In this document: piece by piece, positions 26,693 to 41,413 of the stretch | How positions within the stretch are numbered: the stretch's first letter is position 1 | Layout: every line of letters starts with the position of its first letter | From: Chitinophagales bacterium | GTDB taxonomy: Bacteria; Bacteroidota; Bacteroidia; Chitinophagales; LD1 | Assembly: GCA_046329515.1 (NCBI GenBank) | Contig: JAXLUM010000005.1 | Span: 217,787 to 281,786, forward strand | Length of the DNA: 64,000 bases | Direction: 5' to 3' | The notes under the pieces: model-generated | The model's input: only the letters and a program-made list of their open reading frames with translations | What the model was told of the DNA's origin: nothing | Databases searched by the model: none | Made by a program: the position numbers and the translations under genes

Positions 26693-27346
26693 CTACTGGG
26701 CCTTTTTGTAGTCGGCAGGCACAGTAAATTCCGCATCGGCTATTTCAGTTTGCTTAACGCTTACTAAATCGTAGCTGGCTATTACTTTGCCTTGCAGGTT
26801 TTTGGTAATTGATTTAACCGGAAAGCCTTTTATTTTTTCGGCGCTTAAGCCAAGTATATCATAGTTGCTGCGGAAGAAAGGGAAATACTGGTAGAAAGGA
26901 TATTTCACATCCACCGTAACCCACATTTCTGTTTCAGTTAAAGTAGTGCTTACTACCATCTTCTCACACTTTACACCTCCAAACTGCATGGTTTCGCCGG
27001 TGCGTGTAACCTTAACACCACTCACATCCATATCCTTAGGCGGCTGTATTTTATTAGTAGGCATGGCAAAATAGGTTTTAGCCTGTCCGCCGCTTGGTGT
27101 GCCTTCATTAAACATTAAAAGCTGGTTGCCTTTGCGGTCAGCTATAAAATCTGACACCGTATTTACCTTACCATCGCTGAATGTCATCTGCATTTTGCAG
27201 GCATCATCAGTAATGTACCAGGTTACGCTTATAGTTGAACCAATGGCGTTATCGCTGGTATATTTTTGTTCTACCACAAGCCCTTTTGCTGCATAAGTAA
27301 ATTGCAGAACAGCTAATAAGGCCGTTAGAATAGTTAGTTTCTTCAT
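26693..27346 (-). CDS. Secreted DUF4412-type protein
   Basis: Signal peptide. C-terminal TGET..FGGVKCEK...EMWVT...GFPVK...FTVPADYKK pattern. Confidence 0.7.
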   Translation of the reverse strand: MKKLTILTALLAVLQFTYAAKGLVVEQKYTSDNAIGSTISVTWYITDDACKMQMTFSDGKVNTVSDFIADRKGNQLLMFNEGTPSGGQAKTYFAMPTNKIQPPKDMDVSGVKVTRTGETMQFGGVKCEKMVVSTTLTETEMWVTVDVKYPFYQYFPFFRSNYDILGLSAEKIKGFPVKSITKNLQGKVIASYDLVSVKQTEIADAEFTVPADYKKAQ

Positions 27347-27374: not shown

Positions 27375-28835
27375 TTAGTTACCTACCACACCCTTAACCT
27401 GTGCCGAGTTATAAGTGCCGTCATTAACACCGGTTAGCGGATTACCATTGCGCTTAATGGCATTACCCGCAGGGCCGCTTTGCGGACCATAGAATGGCAG
27501 GAAGCCGCCCGGAATTGGAATAGGAATACAGATTTGACCGATGATTGGAATGCTTACACAAACTTCAATATCTACATCAATGTAGCCCTGCTGGCCCTGT
27601 TGGCCGAAAGGACCGCCATCGCCACCATAAGCTGATGGAGTGATATTTATAGTAGCAACGCTAATAGGAATGCTGATTGGATAATTAGCTGTTGCACCAT
27701 CACCGGGAACTGAACCCACACAGCATGTTGCCGCTGTACCGCTTTGGAATACGCCTATGTTTATACCACCCGGGTTGGTTACGCCACCGGCGCCAGATTC
27801 AGAACCACCGCCACCGCACATACCAAAGCCAATTACAATTTGGCCGATAATTGGAATGCTTGGCGTGCCTAATGCAAAGCCTACTGAACCACCACCGCTA
27901 CCACCGCCATAAATGGCGCCGTTGTTCTGCAGTATAGTGCGTGTAGTTAAATTCATAGCCATACCACCATCCTCCCCGGGGTTACCACCGGCTACTAAAA
28001 GGCTGCCATTAAATACAAATGAACCGCCATCGCCACCGTGACCAAGTATATCGCCGTTGTTTACAATACATACCAGCGAGCTGGCAGCAAGGCCACCTGT
28101 GGTATAAGCCGGTATAGTGTTATCTGTTGCTTTAAGTTCCACTGCATTGTTGATGTTAAGCAGCACATACTGTGGTGAGCCTGTAGGCAGGTTGTTTATT
28201 GCCTGTAAGTTGTAATCAAGTTGGTCAGTAGGTATGGTAAATATTTGCGGAGCTTTAACTGTTACGGTATACGTTAAAAAGTGTATCTCATCGCCGCAAA
28301 AGGCCTGTATAATTATTGGATAAACACCACCCACGGGTGCACACAAATCAGCTTTTACTACAATTTGTACAGTGCCGGCAGAATCAATAGTAGGGTTACC
28401 ATTAAATGAAGCGGTTACGCCTTGTGGCAGTGAGCCAAGGAATATCAATGATATATCCTGATTGCCGTGGGTTTGGTGAACCGTGATAGTAGAGCTTACT
28501 GAATCAGAAAAAATGCGGTCAAGCGTATCCGTAGCGTCGTCAATAGTCATGGTAAATGCACACTCGTAGCAATTCTTCTCATAGGTTTTCAACCAGCACT
28601 CGCCATTCCAATACTCAATTAAGCTATCGGTAGTATTAAAAATGGTAAGGCCTTTCAGCGGGTTATTAATAGCATCGCGCTGAGAAAGCGTTAAACGCGG
28701 AAGGCCGAGTCCACGGTCCGTACTTTCCAATTGAAGCACCGCACTGCTGTCCGGTATAAGAATGTTAATACCCACCTGGGCGCGTAATTCACCCAAGCTT
28801 GCAAACACCAGTAGTAAAAAGAGAATTTTCTTCAT
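27375..28835 (-). CDS. Secreted adhesin-like protein: Bacteroidota QVGIN...PDSSA N-domain, Ig-like spacer, gp38-like polyglycine C-domain
   Basis: Signal peptide, then QVGINILIPDSSAVLQLESTDRGLGLPRLT. C-terminal half NNGDILGHGGDGG...GEDGGMAM...QNNGAIYGGGSGGG...GGGG...GGDGGPFG...GPAGNAI. Start placed at MKKIL (28835). Confidence 0.75.
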   Translation of the reverse strand: MKKILFLLLVFASLGELRAQVGINILIPDSSAVLQLESTDRGLGLPRLTLSQRDAINNPLKGLTIFNTTDSLIEYWNGECWLKTYEKNCYECAFTMTIDDATDTLDRIFSDSVSSTITVHQTHGNQDISLIFLGSLPQGVTASFNGNPTIDSAGTVQIVVKADLCAPVGGVYPIIIQAFCGDEIHFLTYTVTVKAPQIFTIPTDQLDYNLQAINNLPTGSPQYVLLNINNAVELKATDNTIPAYTTGGLAASSLVCIVNNGDILGHGGDGGSFVFNGSLLVAGGNPGEDGGMAMNLTTRTILQNNGAIYGGGSGGGSVGFALGTPSIPIIGQIVIGFGMCGGGGSESGAGGVTNPGGINIGVFQSGTAATCCVGSVPGDGATANYPISIPISVATINITPSAYGGDGGPFGQQGQQGYIDVDIEVCVSIPIIGQICIPIPIPGGFLPFYGPQSGPAGNAIKRNGNPLTGVNDGTYNSAQVKGVVGN

Positions 28836-28953
28836 GTAGCAATTATTGCGATGCCAAAAATAGTACTTATTCCCTCTTGTAAAAGGGTAATACACCTTTC
28901 TTAATAATAAAGAAGTAAAAGCGGGCACCGCCGCGAAATTTGCGCTTTAACAA

Positions 28954-29335
28954 CTAGGCCACCGTAGCCAGCCACCAGGTGTTTCCAAAGGGGTCTAATA
29001 TGCCGGCAGCCCTATCCGCATAGCTGGTTTTAACGGGTTCCATAGCGCTTTTGCATCCTCTTTCCATAGCTAGCTTATAGGTAGCATCGGTATCGGGCAA
29101 ATAAATGAACAAACCGGCATTTTGAACCGGGTAAAGCTCTACCGTATCAGCAAACATTATAACCGAGCCTCCAATATCAACCTGGGCATGTTGTATTCTG
29201 CCGGGTTCATCAGGCCGCTCCATTACGTGCAATTCTTTGGCGCCGAACAGTTCTTTCATAAAGCTCATGGAAGTCCCCGGCGTTATCTACAATGGCGTAA
29301 GGCATTGGCGGTATTTTGGTTAGCGGTATTTTCAT
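28954..29335 (-). pseudogene. VOC/glyoxalase (PhnB-like) protein, frameshifted near 29270
   Basis: ATG at 29335 reads MKIP...MPYAIVDNAGDF. An extra base then joins it to MSFMKELFGA...HAQVDIGGSVIMF...DPFGNTWW. Probably a sequencing error. Confidence 0.7.
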
Positions 29336-29384
29336 AACAAGTATTTATAAGGTAGAAACGCCGGCAGTTACTCAGTATCCTGCG

Positions 29385-30752
29385 TTAGCGCGCTTTTTAA
29401 ATAAACGGCCATTTTTTCCACAGCCAAGCTTAAACGGCATCGGCTTTGGCGTATTTATTTACTGGCAAGTTTTTTCAATGGCTGCCGTTTTTCGGTCGAA
29501 GTTCATCAGCAGTTTGGCAAAAACGTGAAAAGTTAAGGTAGTTGCGCTCAAAGGTTCTGACACATTTTTACGTCTTTGCATGAAAACCTGAAATCAAAAG
29601 CATTCATAAAGCGCTTCTTCGTCTGTTTCAAACACTTTATCATTAACGAACGGGCATCAAGCCCATAGAACAAATCATAGCTGCACCTTCTTTGCAGCAT
29701 TATGCCCTTATCATATTTCTGCGTATGAAAGGTAGTTGGCCATGTTGTAGTTAAAGGCATTATCGCGAACGGCCTTGTTCAGCGGCAGCGGTATTCTGTA
29801 ATAAAGTCGTTAGCTCCAATCACTGACGAGGCGCGCCGTGGTAACAATGTTCTTTATAGTTCTGCTGGTTTATCTCGCCGTTCACCAGCAAAATACCTTT
29901 CTCCAACCTTGTCGTAAAGTTCAAACAGCTCATTAAAGAAACTGCCATCGCTGCGATTAACTCTGCTTATGCAAAAGGCTACAAGTGAAAAGAAATTCGC
30001 CATGTTGCTGTAGTCCACATCATAGCTGCAAGTTCATCGCTATCCATTACGATGGCAAAGCCAGCTTTACATTAAATGGCAATTGGCGTATACCGTTAAG
30101 TAAGCCTTAACCAACACATTTTCTTTTATACCCTTAGCGCCTACCATCTTCAATAACTCTGCCTGGTTAAAGCTTTTCATTTTCAAACCCAAACACATTG
30201 TTATCGTTGGTAAGCTGGCAGAGTTGGCGCAGTCATTGCATAAAACATCATGTTCTCCTGCTGTTTGCGGTGCTCCGTAATAAAACGGCTATACGTTTTC
30301 CGCGAGCCTGGAATGCAATTCTTCTAACAATTCATTGCGTAATACCTTCCAGAAAGAGGTCCGGACGCATAATTTCTTTGCTCTTTTGTTTTAACTGGCT
30401 TCCAGTGAAGCCTTGTTGAGGGCTGCATCCTTTCTGAAAAGAAGTCATTAATGTTGCGGCACAAAGCCCCGCTTGCTTTAAGGTTCTCTCCGCATATATA
30501 AACTGCTCTACTGCACTTATTAATCCGACACCAGGTAACGGAACTTTTTTCATTGTAAGGCGACTTGCCAAAAGCTGCCTCCTGCGGTTTCTCTCTTATT
30601 CTGCTATCTTTACCCAATGCCAGTACTGTGCAGCAACTCTGCTGTTTCTGCTGCTGAAGAAGGCGAGGAAAGTAACGGCCCAGGTCCCGCTTCTGCTTCC
30701 GCTACACACTGTATATTTCTTCCAGCCTTCGGCTTATGGTTTTACCTGTCAT
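29385..30752 (-). pseudogene. About 450-aa all-helical hypothetical protein with multiple frameshifts
   Basis: Fragments across frames: MTGKTISRRLEE, NEKKFRYLVSDL-ISAVEQFI, AELLKMVGAKG, FFNELFELYDK, NAFNYNMANY, YDLFYGLDARSLMIKC, RNYLNFSRF. Coordinates approximate. Confidence 0.6.
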
Positions 30753-30814
30753 TAACTTTTAAAATTATCCGAAATATACCAAAAAATGTATTATTTTTTA
30801 CTATATCAATAAAA

Positions 30815-30822
30815 TATTTTTG
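30815..30822 (+). promoter_or_regulatory. Bacteroidota -7 box (TATTTTTG)
   Basis: TAnnTTTG about 22 nt upstream of the ATG at 30845, in the divergent gap. Confidence 0.4.
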
Positions 30823-30844
30823 TATCAAGCCAAAAATAGTGGCT

Positions 30845-32165
30845 ATGAAAGCTAAAGAGATATGTATTGTTTGTGGCTCATGGTTATTCGTTGCCTCTGC
30901 GTGCCGTGCAATGCCCAGCCCAATGCAGAACGACCTTTTTCAGGCGCACTAACCGGCAGTTGCAGCCAGTATATGGATGTGCTTGCTAATGATGGATTAG
31001 ATAGCAGGCTGGCGCTGCCATCATAGTTATACCATCGTGGCAAATTTGCAGCTAACAGTTATTTCAACCATCACGCCCAAGGGCTTACCGGAACTGATGC
31101 GACTATGCCATGTTAATAAAGGCGATTAATGATACTGCAACGCCAGCATCAACTGTTTCATTAACAACTATATCTTCACAGCGCGATGCCGAACAAAACG
31201 GATTAGTTCGTGTGACGTTGACATACTGGCTCTTGGCCTTGCTTATAACCTAACCGGCCCATCCTGCCTTCCTGTTACCGTAAATGCACTGGCATGGCAA
31301 CCTCTTCTTATTTAAACAGTAACCCCGGCGCTGCTGATTGTAACGGAGATGGTATAGGCAAATGATGGTGACGCTGACAGCAATACCCGCTACGGACAAT
31401 TCGTTCCCTTCTCTACCTATTATGAAGTGATACCAGCAGATGTTATAATGGCTACCGCTTTTGCTGAAATACCCAACGGCGATTCAGTTGCTGACGGAGA
31501 CACTGGATATGCTGTAAATAAAACTAGGTAACGATTTGAGTGTGCAGGAAGCCTAAGCGGCGCAGCCTTAGCTTACGATTCGATAATGGTTTTATTGACG
31601 GAAGCGCCTTGCAAAGGCTACAACTTCTGGTTTTTGCAAAAATGATGCTCCCCTTTCTAATAAAAAAACCAATCAGGCCTATGGGTCAATTGATGTGGTG
31701 ATGAAAGAAACCAATCATCAACTGCAAGTGTAAAGGAGTTGTTACGCACGCATTCTACGATGATAATATTGACGGTAGCTGTGTTGACTGGGCTGGCACG
31801 ATTTAAATTTTCAATTATGAAAAACGGCAAGGAAAGCGAGTTTAACGGTGACAAGATGTTTGCATACAAGGCACCTCCACCGTGCATGTGTTTAAATGGT
31901 TGATGATAAACGAAAGTCTGGCAATTGCAATCGTTGCCGCTTACCCCAACCCAACCAACGGCCAGCTAATCATTGAGGCCGCTAAACTGGAAGGACTAAC
32001 TATTTACGATTTAAGCGGAAGGCAGCTGTTTACTTCAGCCTTTGCCTGAGTAACAGCTATGAAAAGAACGCATATTCTTGGGCTGGCAGCCGGGACTTAC
32101 CTGTTACAGCTTAAAGCTGACACTACCATTATTACCGCAAGAAACTTATTGTTCAACCCAAACCC
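30845..32165 (+). pseudogene. T9SS type-A cargo protein, frameshifted
   Basis: Signal-peptide-like start. MDVLANDGL Ig-like fragment. C-terminal AYPNPTNGQLIIE...IYDLSGRQL...LAAGTYLLQL CTD. Confidence 0.6.
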
Positions 32166-32265
32166 CCAGCACAAAGAAAGATTGTAAAAAAGAGCCGGCA
32201 CAAGCTCAAGGAGCCGCACCGGCGTACAAAAGGCGAAACCAAATTTAACAAACTAAATCAATAAC

Positions 32266-34574
32266 ATGGAAACCTTTTAGAATCATACTTATGGTAGCCT
32301 TTATGGCCATTATAAGCTTTGCGCGGCCTCAAACCAGTTCTACCGTCAGTACAGGCGGGGCAAGTGCGCATTGGTAGATTCCACTAATAATTACCCCATT
32401 GATAGCTTTACCGTATTGGTACCGCCAACAAACGGCACCATCAGTTATTCGCCTGCATATGGCTCGTACGTTTATTGCCCTAACAACGGCTTTATAGGCG
32501 CTGATTTTGCCCAGGCTTACATATGCTTTAACACGGGCTTTTTGGTAAAAACCGGTGATATTTAATATTACCTTTTTGGTTGATAGCAGCAACCCCTTGC
32601 ACCTTAACCGCTTACGTTGTGCAGGATTCAGCAGCAGTTCGCCCGGGCGGTAATCGCTTCATTGCAATTACCGTGGTGGTGTTCCGCCTTTTACTTATTT
32701 ATGGTCTGATGGCTCTACTTCAGATATTTACTGCGAACCCAGCCTTAATGCCGGCGGTTGCGTAACCGTAACCGATAATGCAGGTTGCTTTTTCAGCGCT
32801 TGCAGTGGCAATAACGGCTGCCAGTTAGTGTTAAACGTAGCCCATAAATACCTGTGGCTTCGCGGGCCGGTATAATAGCCGTGCTTCCGGTGACAGCCCC
32901 TTACCCTATTACTGGAATACAGGCGTTAACACTGGGGAAATACCGGTAACGTACAACAGGAACCATGTATTGCCTGTAATTGACGCTTAATGCGCCGTGC
33001 AGGGTAGCTGCTACCAGGTAATGCTAAGCAGGCAACTGTTCTTTCTACGGTTACAGCGCCAACCCACGGTGGTGGAACTGATGTAGATTTCACAGCTACT
33101 ACGATTCAAGCTATACTGCCAGTTCCATTACATGGGATTTTTGGCGATAACACTACCGGTACCGCTAACCCAACACACGCTTATGCAAACTGTGGTGTAT
33201 ACAACGTAACACTTATTTATATAGCAACGGCGATTCATGCTCCTACACCAACCAGGTGTACGCGCAATGCGACTTCACCACGTTATCCGTTGTGCCGCTA
33301 AATACCTTACTACTATGGGGATAAACAGCAATTTCCACTTTATGATTACTCCGCCTACAACCCAATTACATGGATACGGGATTTTGGTGACGGGTACAAC
33401 ATCAACTTCTACAGACCCTATGCACAGTTATGGCACACAGGGCACATGGAACGTTTGCTTAACTATTACTGATGGCAGCGGATGTTCATCAAGCTACTGC
33501 GAGCAGGTAAGTAATGTGCTCTGCACAGACCTACTGCTTTTTTATACCACCAAACAACAGTTACACCGGGCTTCTTTCCGTTGTGGACTTACTTAACTGC
33601 TTTTCGGCAACAGCGGCAACATAATGATGGATGGCACTATGACCTACCACTATCCTGATGGCGCTACCTTCAATTATTCTTCACCTCCGGCTATCAAGGC
33701 ACGACAACTACATTCTTACTTTCACCTTCACCAATCTGCTGCTTTACCTGCAGATGTGTATGCTGACCTTACAGCAGGTGCTGGTACGCAATTAGGGCTC
33801 AATAGCTAACGATACGCTTTAGCCTCATCAGCTGGGCGTAGACATTAACCTGGCGGATAAATATGGCTGTTGTAAGCGATTCAGTGGTTGGTTCATGGGA
33901 CTTAACGATAAAGCCGTATCACCTAAAGGTGAATCTGCTTTAGGTATTATTCCGGTTAGCACACAGGAGTTTACCGTATCCGTTTCCAAAACACTGGTAA
34001 CGCCTGCGCAAAACGTAATGATACGCGACGAGATTAACAGCAATATTGACCTTACTACTGTAAAAGTTACAGGGTACCGACCATCAGCAATGTAGCTGAA
34101 ATTATCCTGCACGAATTAGTGGTAACTTTGCCAACATAATGCTGCCTGATGTAGCGGGTTCACAAATTACGAAGGCAGCTAGGCTATATTGATGTATTGC
34201 TGGGTTGAAGCCAGGCTTACCTTATGGCACCGCAAATATTCAACACGGCCAACATTTACTGATTTTACGTTCTTGTTGTATTACTAACACTGGTAGTAAT
34301 ACATTGGGTGGACCAACAGTAACAACAAATTGCAACAACTTCCGTGTTTACCCTGTTGCCTAACCCTGCGCAAGCGCAACTTTACATACGTGGTGAGTTT
34401 GACAAAAATTCGACCTACGAAGTAATGGATGCGCTTGGCCAAACAGCGTAGTTGCCAATGGCGAACATGGTATAAGCAACCGTGTTGACGCATCAACTTT
34501 TAGCACGGTATTACCTGGCAAAAGCAAGAGGAGATGGCGAGCGGCGTTCCTAACGCCTTGTTATTGCAAAATAA
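32266..34574 (+). pseudogene. T9SS type-A cargo protein with SprB-like, two PKD and DUF11-like domains, frameshifted
   Basis: Fragments: PPFTYLWSDGST, WDFGDNTTGTANPTHAYANCGVYNVTL, DFGDGTTSTSTDPMHSYGTQGTWNVCLTITD, NDKAVSPKG, RFQNTGNAPAQNVMIRD, LPNPAQAQL CTD, TAA at 34572-34574. Confidence 0.7.
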
Positions 34575-34676
34575 TTTCTTCTCAGTCTGTGCTGTCACCC
34601 GTGTGTGCCTTTTTTATTGCTTGGCTATATTTGCGTCAATCGAATGACACCAACAACAACATTAGCTCCTTATGGT

Positions 34677-35305
34677 TTAGTTTGACGTGTTTTCTATACC
34701 TCTTGCGCCGCACTAAAGCTGGTAGTGATTAAAATGTAACATCAATATTTTTTGTTGTTGCGAGATAATCAGTTATTATATTTAAGTAAATAAATAAAGT
34801 ATTAGCCACCTCAGGCGTGTCATCGATATTCATTTCACCTGGGTGCATGGCATTGTTTCTGTCGCAATTTAATAATATCTACTGCTTGTTGTATTTTTTC
34901 GGTACATTCTTTACTAAGGCACCTTATCATTGTATTTAATATCCTTTTTTCTAGAGACTTCGCAGTTTTTGTAGTGCCAATCAAGTAATTGCAAGCCAGA
35001 ACTTCTAGAGATGCTGGTTATAATTACTGGCTTCCATATAATCCTTTCTTTGTATTTTCAGCATACTTGCTCACTATACCTCCTGAATATGTAAGTAATT
35101 AAGCATCCGAATTCAAACAGCTATGAAAAACATCAAGACACTGAAAAACTATATGGAGATAAGGAAATCCTTTCTAATTAATGGTTTCATCTGTTTGTTT
35201 TCCTGAAAATGTGAACAATCCATAATTCCATGTCTGTCTTTTAAATATGTTAAACAATATGACAGTTGAAGGCGTCATTCAACTGAGGTAAGGGCAGCAT
35301 TGCAT
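34677..35305 (-). pseudogene. DUF4145-domain protein, frameshifted
   Basis: Fragments: PQLNDAFNC, KKDYMEASN, IQQAVDII, NNAMHPGEMNIDDTPEVANTLFIYLNIITDYL, SLPA. AT-rich. Confidence 0.65.
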
Positions 35306-35539
35306 AATTAACTTATAATAGCTAATTGCACTTACAATAGACAATAGAAAGCATACACCTAACTTGCCTGTTTGCTAGATCTGATTTTTGAGTATCACGC
35401 ATTGCTTGAAGTTTGTGGGCAAGCTTATGCCATTATTTTGTGGGCATGTAACATTTGGCTGCAGTGTTATCAGCAAAGAGATTGTGTTAAGTGATTGACT
35501 AAGCATTTCTAAAAGAGAAAATCATTTATCTTGCAATCA

Positions 35540-38500
35540 GGTAACAGTAGCTGAAGGCCCTTAACTATCACATTTTAATCAACCAGATTATAAAATGATT
35601 TTGGATAAACTGACATGCTGGCTAAAGAGCTTTGTTATCATTCTGTGCAGGTAATCACATGAAGCTACAGTGGCAGTATCATCCAGGAAAGTACAACTGT
35701 TATTATCAGTATAACTATAGTTGCTATGACTGTCAACTGGCTAAGCTGGTAAAACGAACTGGGTAACAATTAGTAGGCCGCTATATGGCTCACTGGCAGT
35801 ACACTGGTTATTACTACTCTATTGCGTATGGTTGCACTACTTACCGGAAAAAGTAAAAGCTTAATGGGGAGAAGCATTTACCGTAATCGTTAAGGCCAGC
35901 ATTGAACTATCATAGCCATTAACTGCACCAACGCGATTGCAATTGTTGGCAGAAGTTGTTGAAGGCCATTACATGACCATCAATGGTAGTAGCGCCTCGA
36001 CCAGCTTGTTGGGCAAGTCCAGTTGTAAGAAGTAGCATTAGCAATATAAGAACCATATACACTAATTAGAAGAACTTTTCGCAACGGTTGTTACTGCTTT
36101 ATAGCTGGTGTTAGCTAAAAGTACTTGGAATGGTAACACTAAATTGATGCAGATTGAAGCGGAACCCATATTGTTAATGGTACCAACGATAATAACTCTT
36201 CCGCTTCAACTGGTTGCATCTTGGTAATAGAAGGATCAGGATGATGAGCCTGACCAGCTGAAGGAATGTTCAGCCATAAGCGCCATAGCCTGCGACAATT
36301 AACACGAATCGTTTGACTGCTGCCACTGTAACATTGTTGTTGCCACTAATAGTGCTCCGAAAAATGGTATTTCGTAACGGATGATGGCAAGGTTTTCAGT
36401 TGTGAGTCGCAATCCGTTGCGCAATAATTACCTGTAGTATGCCGCTAACAGCACGGTACGATTAATTGCGACAGGTGCTGGCATCTGTCCATTGCGATGG
36501 TAAGGTCCAGGTAATAGTTGTTCGTTACCAGTTAATGGCGATATTGTTCATTGTTTCCAAGCAAACGGTAGTGTTACCCAGAATACTCCGTAGGCACGTT
36601 TGGCCAATTGACTTCATCGACACAGTGAAAGCAGGGAAGTTGCATCGTTATCAGTAAATCGTTAACTGGCGTAACTCGTTATGAAGCATCTGCGTGGCTG
36701 TCGGTAAAACATCGCGGGAATGTTGCCGGAAGTTTGCCCCAGGATATTTCATCGAAAATCTTGCGGTAAAGTCCAGGTAATAGCTTCTGCAGGGGCGCCG
36801 TTTACAGCACTAACAGACAGAATCGCCCGGTTGGATTGCGCAAACGACTGTTGCGCCGTTTATGGAGCCTTGCCGCGCCTAAATAACAATCAATAAGCCA
36901 TCGATTTTAACGGTAGAATATGCGTTTGGTAATCCCAACTGGCTGACGGTGAACCATAATTCAATCGAATCGATGCATTTGCCAAAGCTTCATAGTGATA
37001 CAGCAATTCGGGTCGCTTTGCAATAGCGGCAACTTTGCCGGTAAACTTAATCGACAGGGCGACCCTGGTGGAAAACTCGACAGGCCATCGAGGCGCTTAC
37101 GCCCACATCAGGACGGCTACCTGCGGAGCGAATTGTTGAGGCGTCGCAGCAGGAAAGTGGCATTGTTTACCGTTAAGGTGGCCGTTGCTGAAACAGATCG
37201 CCAGCAGCCAACCGTCATCGAGCGCCCTGCGGCTGGCGGGCGATTCATACCGATCAAGCCATACCGCGATGGTTATGCCGCCAGCTGGCGTAGCGCCCTG
37301 AGTAACCCGAATATTGCTGCGACAGTGAAGCTTACCGCCGCCATTAGCGCTGACCTTGCCGACAGGGCGGCTGGCCTGCCTGAAGTAAAGGCGGCGTCTG
37401 GAGATCGCCGGCGGCAACGGTTATTGGCGGACGGTTTGTTGGCTGGCGCAGTGCAGGCCGGAGGATACATGCCGAACCCCGTAGCCTGAACAGCGATTAT
37501 GACATTCAGCTACACTTTCAAATTGATGCTTGCACTGTGTCAGGAACTGCAGTTGGTCTATGTAAACAGGAATGTTAGAGATAAATAGGGGTGAGAAGCC
37601 GATGAGATCATGGTTACGACGATGTTAATAATAGTATTGGCTTATTCGAACTTCAACTTAATATGCCGTTAATGACGGTAAGCCCATCAATTCCGTTTAT
37701 TTTTACGGAGTCGGCATTTTAGATGGAGCCATTCAGACCACATAAAAATCATGTTTTATCACGAAGTGATTTGCCGAACAGAATCCTGGAAAGACGGTTC
37801 GATAACCGACCGCGCTGTTGCTTCTGGCATAGTTTTTCCAGAAGATGTAAGAAGCAACCCGAAGGTTATTGAATCCAGCCCCGTTTTGCCAATTTAAACA
37901 ACTGGGTAGCAGTCAAATTCGCCGAAATAAAATTGATGTTGGATCCACCTGCAGCGCAACCTGAAGGTGACCTAACTCATTTGTTGTCTCCGTGCCTGAT
38001 GGGAAAAAATGAAATTTAGCATTGGTAGTAGCGGGCCTAATAGCCATATGGTGTTGCCCGTTGTTGCTCCTTATACGTCATCATTATTGCAGGGCTTTAG
38101 CATAAAAGCAATTGATGGTTGAAATGAATTAAACCCGGCACAGTAATTGCGTATCTCAAGCAGCTTACGCCTGAAATACTCAGCGCCTACGCACTATCAT
38201 TCAGGAAGACGAGAAGTTGTCGCGTGAAAATAGGAATAAAATCGGCGTGCTAAGATCCGGTGTTTCAGGTACCAAAGCAAGCGTATATTGTAAGGCCCTG
38301 AATTAAACAAAGATGCAGGGGCGAAGGAGCACGCAGGCAGAATAGACTGGATATTGCGTAGCGTTTCATACGCACCGGCAAAATAAATAACGTCCTTTTA
38401 CGCGGTAATAATTTGCTGTGTTGCCACTATAGCACCTGTATTGTGCGCATAGGTAGTAGCGCTTCCGGTGTAGATGTTGGTCCATGTGCTGCCGTCAGGG

Positions 38501-38681
38501 CTGTTTTCAACTATAGCGGCAGTAGTAGCCCAGCTTAAGCTTATATAATGTGCAGCACCGTTTGTGCACCAATTGCCGTTAACCGGCTTCGGCATTGTGG
38601 TGGTTGTGCATATACCCCAAGGGTAATGAATAGAAACAATAAAGCAGCCAGTGGCTTTAGGTAGGGGTAAAACTTTAACAT
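35540..38681 (-). pseudogene. Large secreted FN3/Ig/PKD-repeat protein, heavily corrupted; 3' end uncertain
   Basis: MLKFYPYLKPLAALLFLFITLGVYAQ signal peptide. ISLSWAT..ENSPDGSTWTNIYTGSATTYAH FN3-like unit. Later fragments SATATLTVN, NYYLD, IANATSYNWT. Confidence 0.45.
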
Positions 38682-38744
38682 GCGTCCTTTTTGTGTTAGC
38701 GGCTGCAAGTATACCAACAAAAAGTTTTACGGAATGGCCTTTAA

Positions 38745-39822
38745 CTACCTGAAGGTATAGGTCTTTTTATTGCACCAAATTTTGGTTTCATATTGCTGCA
38801 GGCTGTAGGTAACCGCATCGTTATACACGTTATATTTTTTACCCAGCGGTATCTGCTCACTTACCTGCACCTGCTCACCGTAATAGAAGGCTTTTCAGGC
38901 GGCCGTCAAGGTCCTGCAACAATAATGTCATTATCTACTTTCGCATAGCGGTATGTAGCGTTCCAACCAATACTTTACCGTTATACCACCAGAAGTTATT
39001 GCCACGGTCAGTATACACAATCAGGTTTTCAACGGTTAGGTTAACCAAGCGTCTTCCATCGTTCTCCTGCCCTGGTAATGCACTATCAACTGTTTTAACT
39101 GCGACATATAAACGCCAAACCGCTCGCCCGTCCACCATCTTACCTGCACACCTGCATCGGTTTCAGTAATTTCGCCAAACTCGTGTTTACTTTATAGTTA
39201 TTGGCATAGTCGGTATACATTATAAATCGCGGTTCACCAAAAATTCATGGGCTCAAAGGTTTCCAGCGTTTGATTCCGTCTACGAAACACTTTAAACGTT
39301 CCACATCTATATAGGCAAAAATGTTATCGCCCATTTTACCAACAAGCGTTTAATTTCGGTGCGCTCCAACAATTGGGTTTTACCATCATAAAATATATTC
39401 AACTCGCCCAGCGCATTGGTCCATGCAATAAGGCTATCGGAATAATAAAGCGAATCTTCCCCCGGCCGCCAGAAGGCTTCCAGTTGTTTAAACTCATTGC
39501 CGTACAAAACCTTTATCTGGTTAAAGTTTTGATATAGCATCCAGTTATCAGTCATGTAATAATTAGGCTCGGTATCGGCTATAGTATATTGCTTGCCTTT
39601 GTAATACACTTTAAGGCGGTTGTTTTGCCCAACGTAAGCAAATATGTTATTACGGCCCACCTTAAAGTTACGCAGGGGTAAATTTTCAAGGTAATTGCTT
39701 TGGCCGGCATCAAACACATAAACAAAATTGTTTATATCCATAAAAGGGGCCATGCATTGCCCGTAACCCAGGTAGGTTATAAGGCTAAACAATACGATAC
39801 TGAAGTATTTCACAAAGGGCAA
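38745..39822 (-). pseudogene. Secreted beta-repeat hypothetical protein, frameshifted after about 39345
   Basis: Intact N-half (ORF 39307-39822). Downstream fragments GDNIFAYI, IVYTDRGNNFWWYNGK, VYNDAVTYSLQQYETKIWCNKKTYTFR-stop. Confidence 0.6.
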
Positions 39823-39940: not shown

Positions 39941-40705
39941 TTAGTGCGGAGTGCTGTATTGGTTTTTCATTTGCTCAATCCATTTTTGACGCTCCTCCGG
40001 TGTCATCTGCTGTATCTTGCTGTAATCTATACCCATACCTGCGCCGGGCATTGCAGGGCCTTCGCTCTTTTTATACCCGCTTAAGCTAAACATGGTTGAA
40101 GGGTTATTTCTCTTCTCGGCAGTTATAAGGTCAATCTGCACCATTTGGCCGTGGTCCTCTGTTTTAATTCTTACAGGGAAACCTACCGCACCTTTTGCTT
40201 CCAGCGCGCTATATAGATTGCTTTTGCCGGTGTACTGCGATTTTACTTTGGAGAACTCAGCATAGTTGGCCATTTCAGTAGTAGTCCACCAATCCATATC
40301 GTGCTTGCTGCCTTTCTGCTTAATTTTTACGTGGGTGCAGTTGTAGCCGTTCACTTTCTCCTTGCCTATTACAGTAACTTCGTATTCGCTTTTGTCACCA
40401 TCGCGGTATTCTTCTTTATTGCTTACATCCATTTCGCTGTAGGTCTTCTCCTTTTCGTTCAGCATGTAAATTTTAGAAGGCTCGCTTTTAAGACTAAGTA
40501 TTGCCATAGCGCCGAAACCCGCCGGCACTTTTGCCGAGCTCATTTGCATTTCGCTGCGGCTGTTGCCATCCTGGCTGTAAATCTTCATGGTGCCCATTTC
40601 GCCATCGTTGCCGCTCATCTTCATTTCCATGTAGTAGCCCTGGGCAAAAACACCTAAGCCAAACATCATCAAAATTGATAATGCCGTTATTTTATACTTT
40701 TTCAT
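39941..40705 (-). CDS. Secreted DUF4412-type protein
   Basis: Signal peptide, IYMLNEKEKTYSEM, IGKEKVNGYNCTHV...WWTT...GFPVRI...MFSLSGYKK. Start placed at MKKYK. Confidence 0.78.
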   Translation of the reverse strand: MKKYKITALSILMMFGLGVFAQGYYMEMKMSGNDGEMGTMKIYSQDGNSRSEMQMSSAKVPAGFGAMAILSLKSEPSKIYMLNEKEKTYSEMDVSNKEEYRDGDKSEYEVTVIGKEKVNGYNCTHVKIKQKGSKHDMDWWTTTEMANYAEFSKVKSQYTGKSNLYSALEAKGAVGFPVRIKTEDHGQMVQIDLITAEKRNNPSTMFSLSGYKKSEGPAMPGAGMGIDYSKIQQMTPEERQKWIEQMKNQYSTPH

Positions 40706-40792
40706 GTGGTTTATTTTAATGTGAAGATAGAAACCACAACAATACCAATCAATGATATTATTCAACCTGTTAAACCATTAAAATAAGGTAAA

Positions 40793-41413
40793 CTACTTGT
40801 GGCTAACTACCTGGCGTTGCAGGTTTTCAAAGGTAGTCATGGGGTTTTCTACGCTTTGGGTATTGGTCATCCAGTCGGGTATGCTGCCGCCGGGGTTTGA
40901 GGAGTATTCATTGGTAACTTCGGTGCCGCCTGCCTTGGGAACAAACTTCCAAACGGCCACCATTTGCTCAATGCGCACTACACCTTCCTGTTCTTTCAGG
41001 TACCTAGGTTCTGAAGTTTCCGTCATAACTATAGTGCCGTTGGCATCACGCTCTACCTTTATGCGCAACACACAGTCGCGGTCAGCTACCGGCCAAGGGG
41101 CATTAAATACCATGTGGGCTATAAATTCATTGGCATTAAGGCGGGCCACTATTTTGGCGCTTTTGCAACGCGGAACCCAGTTAGGGTAATTATCGAAATC
41201 AGTTAACAGCGCAAGCATGTTCTCGGGGCTGTTTGATACCAGCATTACCGCTTTGGCATCGCGCAGTTTGCCCCACTTGCTCTTTTTGGTAAAAATTTTA
41301 ATGCCTTTTTTCTCCTGTTCGTACACCCACTCATTAACCTGTTGGGCGCTTCTCCAAGAGCCTAGCGTAAATAACGCAAGCATCAAAATCAATAATTTAC
41401 CGCTGTGTTTCAT
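40793..41413 (-). CDS. START/SRPBCC lipid-binding domain protein
   Basis: W.YEQEKKGIKIF, DFDNYPNWVPRC, APWPVADRD, NPGGSIPDW. TAGATTTG promoter box on the minus strand at 41424-41431. Confidence 0.88.
   Translation of the reverse strand: MKHSGKLLILMLALFTLGSWRSAQQVNEWVYEQEKKGIKIFTKKSKWGKLRDAKAVMLVSNSPENMLALLTDFDNYPNWVPRCKSAKIVARLNANEFIAHMVFNAPWPVADRDCVLRIKVERDANGTIVMTETSEPRYLKEQEGVVRIEQMVAVWKFVPKAGGTEVTNEYSSNPGGSIPDWMTNTQSVENPMTTFENLQRQVVSHK

What the first reader, a model, noticed from the sequence alone, without database searches (positions are those of the whole stretch)
27375..28835. Cellular secreted protein ending in a phage gp38-like polyglycine adhesin
Seen: signal peptide, the common Bacteroidota QVGIN..PD.SA.L...ST..G...PR N-domain, an Ig-like spacer, then ordered Gly motifs (NNGDILGHGGDGG; GEDGGMAM; NNGAIYGGGSGGG; GGGG; GAGG; GGDGGPFG..G..G; GPAGNAI). 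These are separated by hydrophobic inserts, two of which share SIPIIGQI (also duplicated in the DNA near 27540 and 27850). No T9SS CTD and no phage genes nearby. Established: T2/S16-type gp38 adhesins have this kind of motif series, forming a polyglycine-II sandwich with hypervariable receptor-binding loops. Inference: a domesticated tail-tip module used as a bacterial adhesin, for example for OMP or LPS recognition on other cells (prey or host attachment).
Basis: partly seen in the sequence, partly recalled or inferred. Interest (0 to 1): 0.68.

Follow-up and report, generated by a model that had tools for sequence, protein, structure and literature searches.

The report
Bacterial fibre-head protein with phage gp38 fold
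A chromosomal, exported protein of Chitinophagales bacteria ends in a true relative of the glycine-rich gp38 receptor-binding tip of T-even-type phages. Here the tip loops are enlarged, greasy and strongly conserved, and the gene is almost always paired with a LolA-like partner gene, so it looks like a fixed-specificity binding device rather than a fast-evolving phage-style adhesin.

Summary
Window 27375-28835 (-) encodes a 486-aa protein: a Sec signal peptide, a conserved N-module, an Ig-like sandwich and a 290-aa Gly-rich C-domain.

**Homology to gp38.** The C-domain is a genuine homologue of phage gp38.
- The top PDB fold match is S16 gp38 (6F45_D, E=6e-6).
- hhalign against S16 gp38 gives 95% probability and E=4e-8.
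- All ten polyglycine-II helices have collinear counterparts.
- A profile of the domain finds gp38 genes in phage-type contigs, E about 1e-15 to 1e-17.

**Differences from phage gp38.**
- It lacks the gp37-docking domain.
- It is a single-copy gene whose identity tracks relatedness, found in about a quarter of genomes of its order.
- It is under strong purifying selection everywhere (dN/dS about 0.05), with no hypervariable loops.
- All five distal loops are expanded (99 aa against 22) into almost uncharged hydrophobic hairpins.

**Context.**
- A DUF4412 gene with a predicted LolA/RseB-like fold follows it in 69 of 79 loci.
- The N-module heads collagen-like proteins elsewhere in the genome, which suggests a trimer.
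- None of these proteins carries a T9SS tail.

**Verdict.** This is a new cellular variant of the gp38 kind. "Adhesin" is plausible but untested, and "domesticated from phage" and "prey recognition" are unproven.

The parts
28779..28835 (-). Sec/signal-peptidase-I signal peptide, residues 1-19 (MKKILFLLLVFASLGELRA|Q). There is no lipobox Cys, and the mature N-terminus is Gln.
   Evidence: Translation. The AF2 model has a helix at residues 2-14. Homologues start at the same Met and keep A/S-Q at the junction.
28572..28778 (-). N-module, residues 20-88 (QVGINILIPDSSAVLQLES..GLGLPRLT..QRDAI..PL.GLTIFNT.DS..EYWNG.CW). It carries the precomputed label Pfam PF26696 PTL_trimer and is the most conserved part of the protein. 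It is probably a trimerisation or nucleation module.
   Evidence: Mean column entropy is 0.83 bit, the lowest of all segments, and dN/dS is 0.025. The module occurs in 11 ORFs of the genome, and in 8 of the 9 others scanned it is followed directly by Pfam Collagen repeats. Residues 17-38 have pLDDT below 50 in the monomer model despite being invariant. PHROG and cyanophage proteins also match it.
28251..28571 (-). Ig-like beta-sandwich spacer, residues 89-195, with invariant Cys89, Cys92 and Cys180 (plus Cys80 in the N-module).
   Evidence: AF2 places strands within residues 93-193 at pLDDT 89-96. Foldseek matches Ig-like domains of GH123, sialidase, GAE and intimin at E 1e-4 to 1e-3. Invariant columns are listed.
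27378..28250 (-). gp38-like domain, residues 196-486: a beta-helix core with two loop extensions that carry ten Gly-rich (polyglycine-II) segments. The stop codon is at 27375-27377.
   Evidence: Foldseek top PDB hit is 6f45_D, E=6.2e-6, TM 0.56 on the target. BFVD top hits are Gp38-domain and tail-fibre proteins, E 5e-11 to 5e-7. hhalign of A1 against S16 gp38 gives 95%, E=3.8e-8. phrog_11439 'tail fiber protein' matches at E=2e-11. An hmmsearch of 1.8 billion representatives reaches phage gp38 genes.
27456..28043 (-). Polyglycine sandwich plus distal cap, residues 265-460. The counterparts of the ten S16 PGII helices are at 266-272, 282-289, 310-317, 340-346, 347-353, 365-370, 376-381, 404-409, 411-416 and 452-460. 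The five expanded distal inserts are at 273-281, 318-339, 354-364, 382-403 and 417-451.
   Evidence: S16 helix coordinates come from PMC13243192 Table 1 and were mapped through and by inspection. Stretches without DSSP assignment and with pLDDT 90-97 coincide with the Gly segments, while the inserts are beta-hairpins at pLDDT 68-82. The inserts have GRAVY +1.02 and 1.9% charged residues across 52 homologues.
27532..27555 (-). 24-nt direct repeat, copy 1, encoding the second SIPIIGQI (residues 428-435).
   Evidence: family D2
27838..27861 (-). 24-nt direct repeat, copy 2 (92% identical), encoding the first SIPIIGQI (residues 326-333).
   Evidence: family D2
26693..27346 (-). Partner gene: a 217-aa DUF4412 protein with an SPI signal peptide and a predicted LolA/RseB/MucB-type unclosed beta-barrel. 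It starts 28 nt after the target's stop codon on the same strand.
   Evidence: Pfam DUF4412, E=8e-16. AF2 pLDDT is 92.3. Foldseek matches the PNGase F-II N-domain, RseB, MucB, LolA3, ependymin and LolA at E 4e-6 to 1e-3. The gene lies immediately downstream and co-directional in 69 of 79 related loci.
28855..28862 (-). TATTTTTG, a match to the Bacteroidota sigma-A -7 element (TAnnTTTG) 20 nt upstream of the ATG. This is a candidate own promoter for the two-gene unit.
   Evidence: Sequence. The consensus is from my own knowledge of Bacteroidetes promoters, so this is an inference.
28920..28932 (-). Terminator-like hairpin after the upstream VOC gene, separating it from the target.

Best explanation
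The gene encodes a Sec-exported, probably homotrimeric, stalk-less "fibre head".

**Architecture.** An N-terminal module elsewhere nucleates collagen-like triple helices. Here it is joined directly to an Ig-like domain and a gp38-type domain (beta-helix plus polyglycine-II sandwich).

**Proposed mechanism.** The rigid polyglycine lattice serves as a scaffold, as in phage gp38. In phages it presents five short, fast-evolving distal loops. In this protein the same five loops have grown into about 99 residues of conserved, almost uncharged hydrophobic beta-hairpins that form a fixed distal cap. I propose that this cap binds one conserved, probably hydrophobic or lipidic, envelope or surface ligand.

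**Role of the partner.** I propose that the co-transcribed LolA-like DUF4412 protein acts in the periplasm on the same pathway, either as a carrier or chaperone for the greasy cap or by supplying its ligand.

**Shown here:**
- the domain architecture;
- homology to gp38;
- mapping of the inserts onto the distal loops;
- purifying selection in every segment;
- identity that tracks relatedness, consistent with vertical inheritance;
- the conserved gene pair.

**Inferred:**
- the trimeric state;
- the cellular location;
- the nature of the ligand;
- the role of the partner.
For: **Homology**
- Foldseek top PDB hit is S16 gp38 6f45_D (E=6.2e-6, 308 columns).
- Viral fold hits are Gp38 and tail-fibre proteins.
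- hhalign gives 95% and E=3.8e-8 with 34% identity over 134 columns.
- All ten S16 PGII helices have collinear counterparts.
- The C-domain profile hits a 295-aa and a 345-aa protein over the whole profile (E 5e-15 and 6e-17). Both are encoded in contigs with phage-typical genes and carry the Pfam GP38 label.

**Fixed rather than diversifying**
- Insert entropy is 1.4-1.9 bit, against 1.5 for the Ig domain.
- dN/dS is 0.054 for the inserts, and 0.008 for the window against L014.

**Inheritance**
- A single-copy full-length orthologue is present in about 53 of 201 genomes of the order (56 have any match at E<=1e-20).
- Identity is 67-78% within the genus, 53-61% within the family and 40-52% within the order.

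**Distal cap**
- The inserts fall only on the five distal loops, while the proximal turns stay short.
- The inserts have GRAVY +1.02 and 1.9% charged residues.

**Partner**
- DUF4412 lies adjacent in 69 of 79 loci, with a 28-nt gap and no terminator between the genes.
- Its predicted fold is LolA/RseB-like.
- A second DUF4412 gene in the window sits next to a START lipid-binding gene.

**Trimer**
- The N-module precedes collagen repeats in 8 of 9 other proteins scanned.
- The precomputed Pfam name is PTL_trimer.
Against: - No experiment exists for any member of the family, and the library holds no paper that mentions DUF4412.
- The location is unknown. With only an SPI signal, no lipobox and no T9SS CTD, the default place in Bacteroidota is the periplasm, which fits a surface adhesin poorly.
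- The hydrophobic hairpins are amphipathic in pattern. They may simply form the buried core of a beta-subdomain or a subunit interface rather than a ligand site.
- I could not read the model coordinates, so the PGII geometry and the packing of the cap rest on DSSP and pLDDT strings and on Foldseek alignment.
- The trimeric state is inferred by association only.
- dS is about 1.1, near saturation, so the dN/dS values are approximate.
- Eight full-length loci lack the partner next door.
Confidence: 0.5

Rival explanations
1. One reading: a phage tail-tip adhesin captured by the cell and displayed on the surface to recognise OMPs or LPS of other bacteria, for prey or host attachment.
For: - The gp38 homology is solid.
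- gp38-type domains are widespread in diverse phages.
- The family occurs in Saprospiraceae and Aureispira MAGs, a group that from my own knowledge includes contact-dependent predators.
- Longer family members place the same cassette at the end of long stalks.
- The paralogue carries it on a collagen stalk.
Against: - There is no loop hypervariability, and dN/dS is about 0.05. Recognition of varied foreign surfaces should drive diversification, as it does in phage gp38.
- The gene is single-copy and its identity tracks relatedness.
- No surface-export signal is present, in a genome with at least 150 T9SS tails.
- The direction of transfer, phage to cell or cell to phage, was not tested.
- Most carriers are uncultured MAGs of unknown lifestyle.
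Confidence: 0.2
2. A periplasmic or outer-membrane-anchoring role. The hydrophobic distal cap inserts into, or docks on, the inner face of the cell's own outer membrane, delivered by the LolA-like DUF4412 carrier. The protein would then be an envelope structural or anchoring element, or the base of a fibre, and not an outward-facing adhesin.
For: - The protein has only a Sec signal.
- The cap is about 99 residues with GRAVY +1.0 and 2% charged residues, conserved family-wide.
- A dedicated partner with a LolA/RseB-like fold is present.
- The other DUF4412 gene sits next to a START lipid-binding gene.
- N-module proteins systematically lack T9SS tails.
Against: - The strands alternate hydrophobic with small or polar residues and are mostly short (6-12 residues), as expected for an ordinary beta-sandwich.
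- No membrane prediction or coordinates are available.
- In phage relatives the same end is the outward receptor-binding end.
- Collagen-stalked relatives with the same N-module look like extracellular fibres.
Confidence: 0.2
3. A remnant of a prophage or tailocin tail fibre left in the chromosome.
For: PHROG 'tail fiber protein' match at E=2e-11, and gp38 homology.
Against: - The flanking genes are housekeeping and none is a phage gene.
- The protein has a signal peptide.
- Orthologues are intact, with no internal stops, in every genome with a match.
- Synteny with DUF4412 is conserved across families.
- Purifying selection is strong.
Confidence: 0.02
4. A chance resemblance of a low-complexity Gly-rich region, or membership of the other polyglycine class (the TNF-like plus Gly_rich domain of cyanophage Pam3 gp24 or ALK) rather than gp38.
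For: - HMMER with the older local Pfam GP38 model (PF05268.17) finds nothing.
- PDB sequence searches find nothing.
- Gly-rich sequences invite spurious matches.
Against: - The Gly columns are invariant.
- The match to all ten helices, the beta-helix strands and the C-terminal QVKG end is collinear.
- The top structural hit is 6F45_D. No Pam3 or ALK entry appears in the top 50.
- No Pfam Gly_rich hit was found.
- Whole-profile HMMER hits to gp38 genes in phage-type contigs reach E about 1e-15 to 1e-17 in a library of 1.8 billion proteins.
Confidence: 0.03

Closest known systems
gp38 adhesin of Salmonella phage S16 and T2/T6/PP01-type Straboviridae (PDB 6F45 chain D; Pfam PF05268 GP38; Dunne et al. 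2018, summarised in PMC6851490)
   Same: - Both have a central beta-helix with two loop extensions that carry ten Gly-rich segments in the same order.
- The key motifs match: I.GRGG.GG, GGNPG.D, NN.G.I.GGGGGGG, GGGG...GAGGV, G..AT..PG.G, Y.G.GG..G..G and G.AG.A.
- Fold and profile matches are significant.
   Different: - The N-terminal three-Trp domain that docks gp38 on the gp37 trimer is absent. It is replaced by a signal peptide, an N-module and an Ig domain on the same chain.
- The five distal loops total 99 residues against 22. They are hydrophobic (GRAVY +1.0 against -0.56) and conserved rather than hypervariable.
- The gene is chromosomal, its identity tracks relatedness, and it is paired with a LolA-like gene rather than with gp37.
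Phage tail-fibre proteins with a fused C-terminal gp38-like domain (phrog_11439; BFVD A0A1B2IGH1, E1AC26, A0A6J5L9H1)
   Same: The gp38-like domain is covalently attached at the C-terminus of a longer, presumably trimeric, fibre chain.
   Different: Those are virion proteins without signal peptides, encoded in phage genomes. The protein here is cellular and Sec-exported, and has no stalk.
Bacterial collagen-like surface proteins with a globular trimerisation or head domain (for example Streptococcus Scl1/Scl2, Bacillus BclA and Legionella Lcl, PMC11162425)
   Same: The N-module here is the one that precedes collagen triple-helix repeats in 8 other proteins of this genome. The paralogue L093:3090-6164 carries collagen repeats and then a gp38-like head.
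   Different: The protein itself has no collagen repeats. Its N-module is unrelated in sequence to the V, BclA-C1q-like or Lcl domains, and no binding data exist.
Other polyglycine-II bundle proteins: snow-flea antifreeze protein, the ALK/LTK glycine-rich domain and cyanophage Pam3 gp24 (PMC13243192, PMC9608196)
   Same: They use stacked Gly-rich left-handed helices as a rigid scaffold.
   Different: Their cores and topologies differ (TNF-like or a free bundle). None appears among the top fold hits, and there is no Pfam Gly_rich hit.
LolA/LolB, RseB/MucB and related unclosed beta-barrel lipid-binding proteins (for the partner gene)
   Same: The predicted fold of the DUF4412 partner matches them at E 4e-6 to 1e-3. 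It has a signal peptide and so faces the periplasm.
   Different: There is no detectable sequence similarity. DUF4412 is uncharacterised. The gene is linked to one specific client gene and not to the general Lol pathway.

Membership tests
gp38 adhesin (Pfam PF05268; S16/T2 type) | Ten Gly-rich motifs in a fixed order, forming a three-layer polyglycine-II sandwich | tested here: met
   All ten S16 PGII helices have collinear counterparts. These segments have pLDDT 90-97 and no DSSP helix or strand assignment. The top PDB fold hit is 6F45_D. The phi/psi angles of the model could not be read.
gp38 adhesin (Pfam PF05268; S16/T2 type) | Central beta-helix from which the two Gly-rich extensions emerge | tested here: met
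   The Foldseek alignment spans 308 columns, with TM 0.56 on the 248-residue target. hhalign covers gp38 residues 86-221, including the beta-helix strands. Short strands at 254-259, 262-264, 280-283, 299-304, 307-309, 458-461, 473-476 and 480-485 appear in the model.
gp38 adhesin (Pfam PF05268; S16/T2 type) | Significant sequence-profile match to the family | tested here: inconclusive
   The local PF05268.17 model gives no hit even at E<=10. The precomputed PF05268.19 labels are unmarked, meaning E<=1e-5, on this protein's homologues. The reverse profile search reaches GP38-labelled genes in phage-type contigs at E about 1e-15 to 1e-17.
gp38 adhesin (Pfam PF05268; S16/T2 type) | N-terminal helical attachment domain with three conserved Trp that docks on the gp37 trimer tip | tested here: not met
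   The alignment to S16 starts at gp38 residue 86. The region upstream in this protein is a signal peptide, an N-module and an Ig sandwich.
gp38 adhesin (Pfam PF05268; S16/T2 type) | Hypervariable distal loops (HVS) that set host range | tested here: not met
   Insert entropy is 1.4-1.9 bit, about the same as the Ig domain. dN/dS is 0.054. The inserts are five times longer than in S16 and are conserved.
gp38 adhesin (Pfam PF05268; S16/T2 type) | Encoded in a phage genome directly after the distal tail-fibre gene (gp37) | tested here: not met
   The context is chromosomal and housekeeping. The same context is kept across 79 loci on contigs of up to 4.4 Mb.
T9SS cargo protein | C-terminal sorting domain (Por_Secre_tail, type A or B CTD) | tested here: not met
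   Pfam and NCBIfam give no hit at E<=1. The C-terminus is part of the gp38 fold and ends at QVKGxVG in all homologues. The genome has at least 150 CTDs elsewhere.
PTL_trimer (Pfam PF26696) N-module proteins | Match to the family model | not testable with these tools
   PF26696 is absent from the local Pfam copy. Only the precomputed label is available. My own HMM of residues 20-88 finds 11 ORFs in the genome.
PTL_trimer (Pfam PF26696) N-module proteins | Forms a homotrimer | not testable with these tools
   The evidence is by association only: the module precedes collagen triple-helix repeats in 8 of 9 other proteins scanned. No multimer prediction tool was available.
DUF4412 (Pfam PF14371), for the partner gene | Match above the curated cut-off | tested here: met
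   58.8 bits against a cut-off of 21.6.
LolA/LolB-RseB fold superfamily, for the partner gene | Unclosed antiparallel beta-barrel with a hydrophobic cavity | tested here: inconclusive
   The AF2 model has pLDDT 92.3. Foldseek matches RseB, MucB, LolA3, LolA and LprG at E 1e-5 to 6e-3 and TM 0.35-0.5. The cavity and lipid binding were not examined.

The most novel reading that the evidence does not exclude
The N-module proteins of Bacteroidota may form an unrecognised class of trimeric envelope fibres that bypass the T9SS. This covers the present protein, its collagen-stalked paralogue and the collagen-like proteins. In this family the gp38-derived head would have been turned around in function. 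Its five distal loops, enlarged into a conserved hydrophobic cap, would insert into or clamp onto a membrane or lipid. A dedicated LolA-like DUF4412 carrier would ferry that cap across the periplasm. The result would be functionally analogous to the anchor of trimeric autotransporter adhesins, but built on a polyglycine-II scaffold.
Probability: 0.1. Interest if true: 0.75.

Novelty: new variant of a known kind. Interest (0 to 1): 0.52.

Why it matters
The polyglycine-II sandwich of gp38 has been studied as a phage host-range device. This finding shows a conserved cellular branch of the same domain.
- It has been kept under strong purifying selection in several families of Chitinophagales, including Saprospiraceae.
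- It has a different N-terminal context, enlarged and fixed distal loops, and a dedicated LolA-like partner.

It offers three things:
1. A natural example of how the gp38 scaffold tolerates 20-35-residue loop insertions, which is useful for engineering receptor-binding proteins.
2. A first functional handle on DUF4412 and on the common Bacteroidota N-module that heads collagen-like proteins.
3. An open question about how such proteins reach their site of action without a T9SS tail, in organisms that rely heavily on the T9SS.

No member of the family has been studied experimentally.

Tried and rejected
- **Direct Pfam and NCBIfam scans** of the protein gave nothing at E<=1. PF05268.17 against the whole genome also gave nothing. 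The local Pfam copy is older than the one behind the precomputed labels, and PF26696 is not in it.
- **PDB sequence searches**, with a single sequence and with a profile, gave only noise.
- **tblastn against the phage collection** found only the N-module. BLAST's low-complexity filter, which is on, may have masked the Gly-rich part.
- **Literature searches** for PTL_trimer, PF26696 and DUF4412 returned no papers. I could not establish what PTL stands for.
- **Prophage or tailocin remnant** was rejected on context and conservation.
- **The Pam3/ALK-type Gly_rich domain** was rejected on fold ranking.
- **The rRNA operon idea** for the ORF-poor stretch at 29.3-39.3 kb was rejected.
- **Model coordinates** are not exposed, so I could not measure PGII dihedrals, map the hydrophobic surface or check how the inserts pack.
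- **Names for distant representatives** were mostly absent.
Full report
**1. What is there**

The minus-strand ORF 27375-28928 most plausibly starts at the ATG at 28835. That start gives a 486-aa protein (P0001) with a classical signal peptide (MKKILFLLLVFASLGELRA|QVG), and homologues start at the same Met. The duplicated SIPIIGQI corresponds to a 24-nt direct repeat at 27532-27555 and 27838-27861.

**2. Family and conservation**

A word-indexed search found at least 233 homologues, nearly all 475-505 aa and 42-82% identical. They come from Chitinophagales-type MAGs, on contigs of up to 1.2 Mb. All carry the precomputed labels PF26696 (PTL_trimer) and PF05268 (GP38). In a 52-sequence alignment the Gly positions are invariant.

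In 201 genomes sampled from the same order, 56 have a match at E<=1e-20 and about 53 of these carry a single full-length copy.
- The carriers cluster in a few families.
- Identity falls with relatedness: 67-78% within the genus, 53-61% within the family and 40-52% within the order.
- No copy has internal stops.

Named records include Chitinophagales, Saprospiraceae, Aureispira, Saprospira and Lishizhenia MAGs. This is the pattern of an old gene that has been inherited vertically.

**3. The C-terminal domain is a true gp38 homologue**

AlphaFold2 on the alignment gave a confident model (pLDDT 86.3, pTM 0.71). The evidence for homology is as follows.
- The best PDB fold match is chain D of 6F45, the S16 gp38 adhesin (E=6.2e-6, 308 aligned columns, TM 0.56 on the target).
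- The best matches among predicted viral structures are Gp38-domain and tail-fibre proteins (E 5e-11 to 5e-7).
- PHROGs gives phrog_11439 'tail fiber protein' at E=2e-11.
- I fetched S16 gp38 from its genome. hhalign of the family alignment against it gives 95% probability, E=3.8e-8 and 34% identity over 134 columns. Residues 237-420 align to gp38 residues 86-221.

With the published PGII helix coordinates of S16 gp38 (PMC13243192, Table 1), each of the ten helices has a collinear counterpart:

| S16 gp38 | This protein |
|---|---|
| RGGTGGV | HGGDGGS |
| LGGNPGGD | AGGNPGED |
| GGGGGGGG | GGGSGGGS |
| AGGGGGR | CGGGGSE |
| LGAGGVS | SGAGGVT |
| NGDNAT | SGTAAT |
| APGRGY | VPGDGA |
| AGNGGD | GGDGGP |
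| NPGSAS | GQQGQQ |
| MGGGAAGRA | QSGPAGNAI |

In the model these segments have pLDDT 90-97 and no DSSP helix or strand assignment. DSSP has no PGII class, so this is what PGII helices should look like.

Finally, a profile of the C-terminal 272 residues (A3) was searched against 1.84 billion representatives.
- It gave 958 hits at E<=1e-3.
- Two of the hits, a 295-aa and a 345-aa protein, match over the whole profile (E 5e-15 and 6e-17).
- Both are labelled GP38. One is encoded in a contig with thymidylate synthase, DHFR and large unannotated genes, the other in a contig with Thy1, RNR, PhoH and MazG, gene sets typical of large phages.
- Even the C-terminal ...QVKG ending is shared.

**4. Differences from phage gp38**

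[quoted passage not shown] Here the attachment domain is missing. The same chain instead carries a signal peptide, an N-module and an Ig-like sandwich.

b. *Expanded distal loops.* From the up-and-down topology of the helices, the five distal loops of S16 are 122-123, 159-165, 181-184, 199-204 and 219-221, 22 residues in all.
- All five inserts of this protein (273-281, 318-339, 354-364, 382-403 and 417-451, 99 residues) fall on exactly these distal loops.
- The proximal turns stay short.
- In the model the inserts are beta-hairpins.

c. *No hypervariability.*
- Mean column entropy of the inserts is 1.4-1.9 bit, against 1.5 for the Ig domain.
- Nei-Gojobori dN/dS over 50 pairs of 80-98% identity is 0.054 for the inserts and 0.025-0.056 for all other segments.
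- For the window against its closest relative the insert value is 0.008.
- dS is about 1.1, so these values are approximate, but the direction is clear.

d. *A greasy cap.* Across 52 homologues the inserts have GRAVY +1.02 ± 0.14 and only 1.9% charged residues. Other domains have 7-18% charged residues, and the S16 distal loops have GRAVY -0.56.

**5. The N-module**

Residues 20-88 are the most conserved part of the protein (entropy 0.83 bit, dN/dS 0.025). Even so, residues 17-38 have pLDDT below 50 in the monomer model. That combination is typical of a segment that folds only in an assembly.

An HMM of the module finds 11 ORFs in the genome, in most of them starting right after the signal peptide.
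- In 8 of the 9 other proteins scanned, Pfam Collagen triple-helix repeats follow it directly.
- One paralogue (L093:3090-6164, 1025 aa) has this order: signal peptide, N-module, about 350 aa of GXY repeats, a second N-module, Ig domains and a compact gp38-like domain.
- Longer family members (597-800 aa) also keep the N-module, Ig and gp38 cassette at the C-terminus.
- The module also matches PHROGs of unknown function and two cyanophage proteins.

Together with the Pfam name PTL_trimer, this suggests a trimerisation or nucleation module. The 486-aa protein would then be a stalk-less trimeric head. This is inference.

**6. The partner gene**

A 217-aa DUF4412 gene with its own signal peptide starts 28 nt downstream on the same strand.
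- No terminator-like site lies between the two genes.
- A terminator-like hairpin and a TAnnTTTG-type element lie upstream of the target.
- In 79 related loci a DUF4412 gene is the immediate co-directional neighbour in 69. Two of the remaining ten are cut by contig ends. In the others examined the downstream genes are unrelated to DUF4412.
- The rhomboid and threonine aldolase genes are syntenic only in close relatives.
- The partner's AF2 model (pLDDT 92.3) matches the LolA/LolB, RseB/MucB, PNGase F-II N-domain and ependymin unclosed beta-barrel fold (E 4e-6 to 1e-3).
- A second DUF4412 gene in the window (39944-40765, minus strand) sits next to a START lipid-binding gene.
- The library holds no paper that mentions DUF4412.

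**7. Context and export**

The flanking genes are housekeeping: WaaA, FloA/NfeD, RlmH, a rhomboid, threonine aldolase and a VOC protein. None is a phage gene.

The genome carries at least 150 Por_Secre_tail domains. Neither this protein nor any of the nine other N-module proteins scanned has one. There is also no lipobox. How the protein would reach the surface, if it does, is unknown.

**8. Interpretation**

*Shown:* this is a cellular, Sec-exported and strongly constrained gp38 homologue. Its enlarged, conserved, hydrophobic distal loops sit on the same scaffold positions that bind receptors in phages. It is genetically coupled to a LolA-like protein.

*Most likely (confidence about 0.5):* a fixed-specificity binding head, probably trimeric. 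Its distal cap would recognise one conserved, probably hydrophobic or lipidic, ligand of the envelope or a surface. The DUF4412 protein would act as its periplasmic carrier or chaperone, or as the supplier of the ligand.

*Rivals:*
The lack of diversification and of an export signal weakens it.
- An inward or outer-membrane-anchoring envelope role (about 0.2).
- A prophage remnant or a low-complexity artefact. Both are effectively excluded.

The direction of transfer between phages and cells was not determined.

**9. Novelty**

Recent Pfam models already label the domain content. I found no paper on any member of the family, on DUF4412 or on the N-module. Relative to gp38 this is a new variant of a known kind. 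It has the same scaffold, with different attachment, loop architecture, evolutionary regime and genomic partner.

**10. Limits**

- I had no access to the model coordinates.
- No multimer prediction tool was available.
- Almost all carriers are uncultured MAGs.

Noticed in passing
window 29300-39300: About 10 kb has almost no ORF of 120 aa or more; the only one is 36995-37489. There are no rRNA, tRNA or Rfam hits, no tandem repeats and no Ns. Relatives have intact genes here: a helical-repeat protein of at least 312 aa and a 776-aa PKD protein in L015. Their DNA matches the window only in fragments (29501-29977, 33877-33930), and one fragment (33225-33593) still hits PKD_4. The stretch looks like decayed genes or a locally poor consensus.
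   Followed up: partly
G000:C2:191089-194166 (L093:3090-6164, + strand): A 1025-aa paralogue with this order: signal peptide, N-module, about 350 aa of collagen GXY repeats, a second N-module, Ig-like domains and a compact, Cys-containing gp38-like Gly-rich domain. It has the architecture of a phage tail fibre but is an exported chromosomal protein.
   Followed up: partly
own genome: C1:767892-771197, C3:442404-446255, C3:310784-312688, C3:307754-310399, C2:1141302-1146269, C2:1132616-1138738, C2:219067-220188, C1:1206689-1207192: A family of exported proteins in which the same N-module lies right after the signal peptide. In the seven of these eight ORFs that were scanned, collagen triple-helix repeats follow it directly and no Pfam T9SS tail was found, in a genome with at least 150 such tails. 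C2:1132616-1138738 (2040 aa) was not scanned. Their export route and C-terminal heads were not examined.
   Followed up: partly
window 39944-40765 (-) and 40796-41413 (-): A second, longer DUF4412 protein (274 aa, Pfam E=2e-39) lies directly beside a START/polyketide-cyclase-type lipid-binding protein. This hints that DUF4412 proteins handle hydrophobic ligands.
   Followed up: no
window 1-3876 (-): An exported protein of more than 1292 aa, running off the window, with about 250 aa of GGxGGxGG-type Gly/Cys-rich sequence. The pattern differs from the gp38 motif series. It was not tested for a polyglycine fold.
   Followed up: no
P0147 (849 aa), Candidatus Paceibacterota MAG, 292-kb contig: A CPR bacterium encodes a protein that matches the gp38-like profile at E=7.5e-42 in three stretches. 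Cellular gp38-type domains are therefore not confined to Bacteroidota.
   Followed up: no
L094:5143-6285 (Leptolyngbya phage Lbo-JY46, 'gp257'): In this cyanophage protein the N-module-like sequence lies at the C-terminal end of a 380-aa hypothetical protein. Its position is the opposite of that in the bacterial proteins.
   Followed up: no
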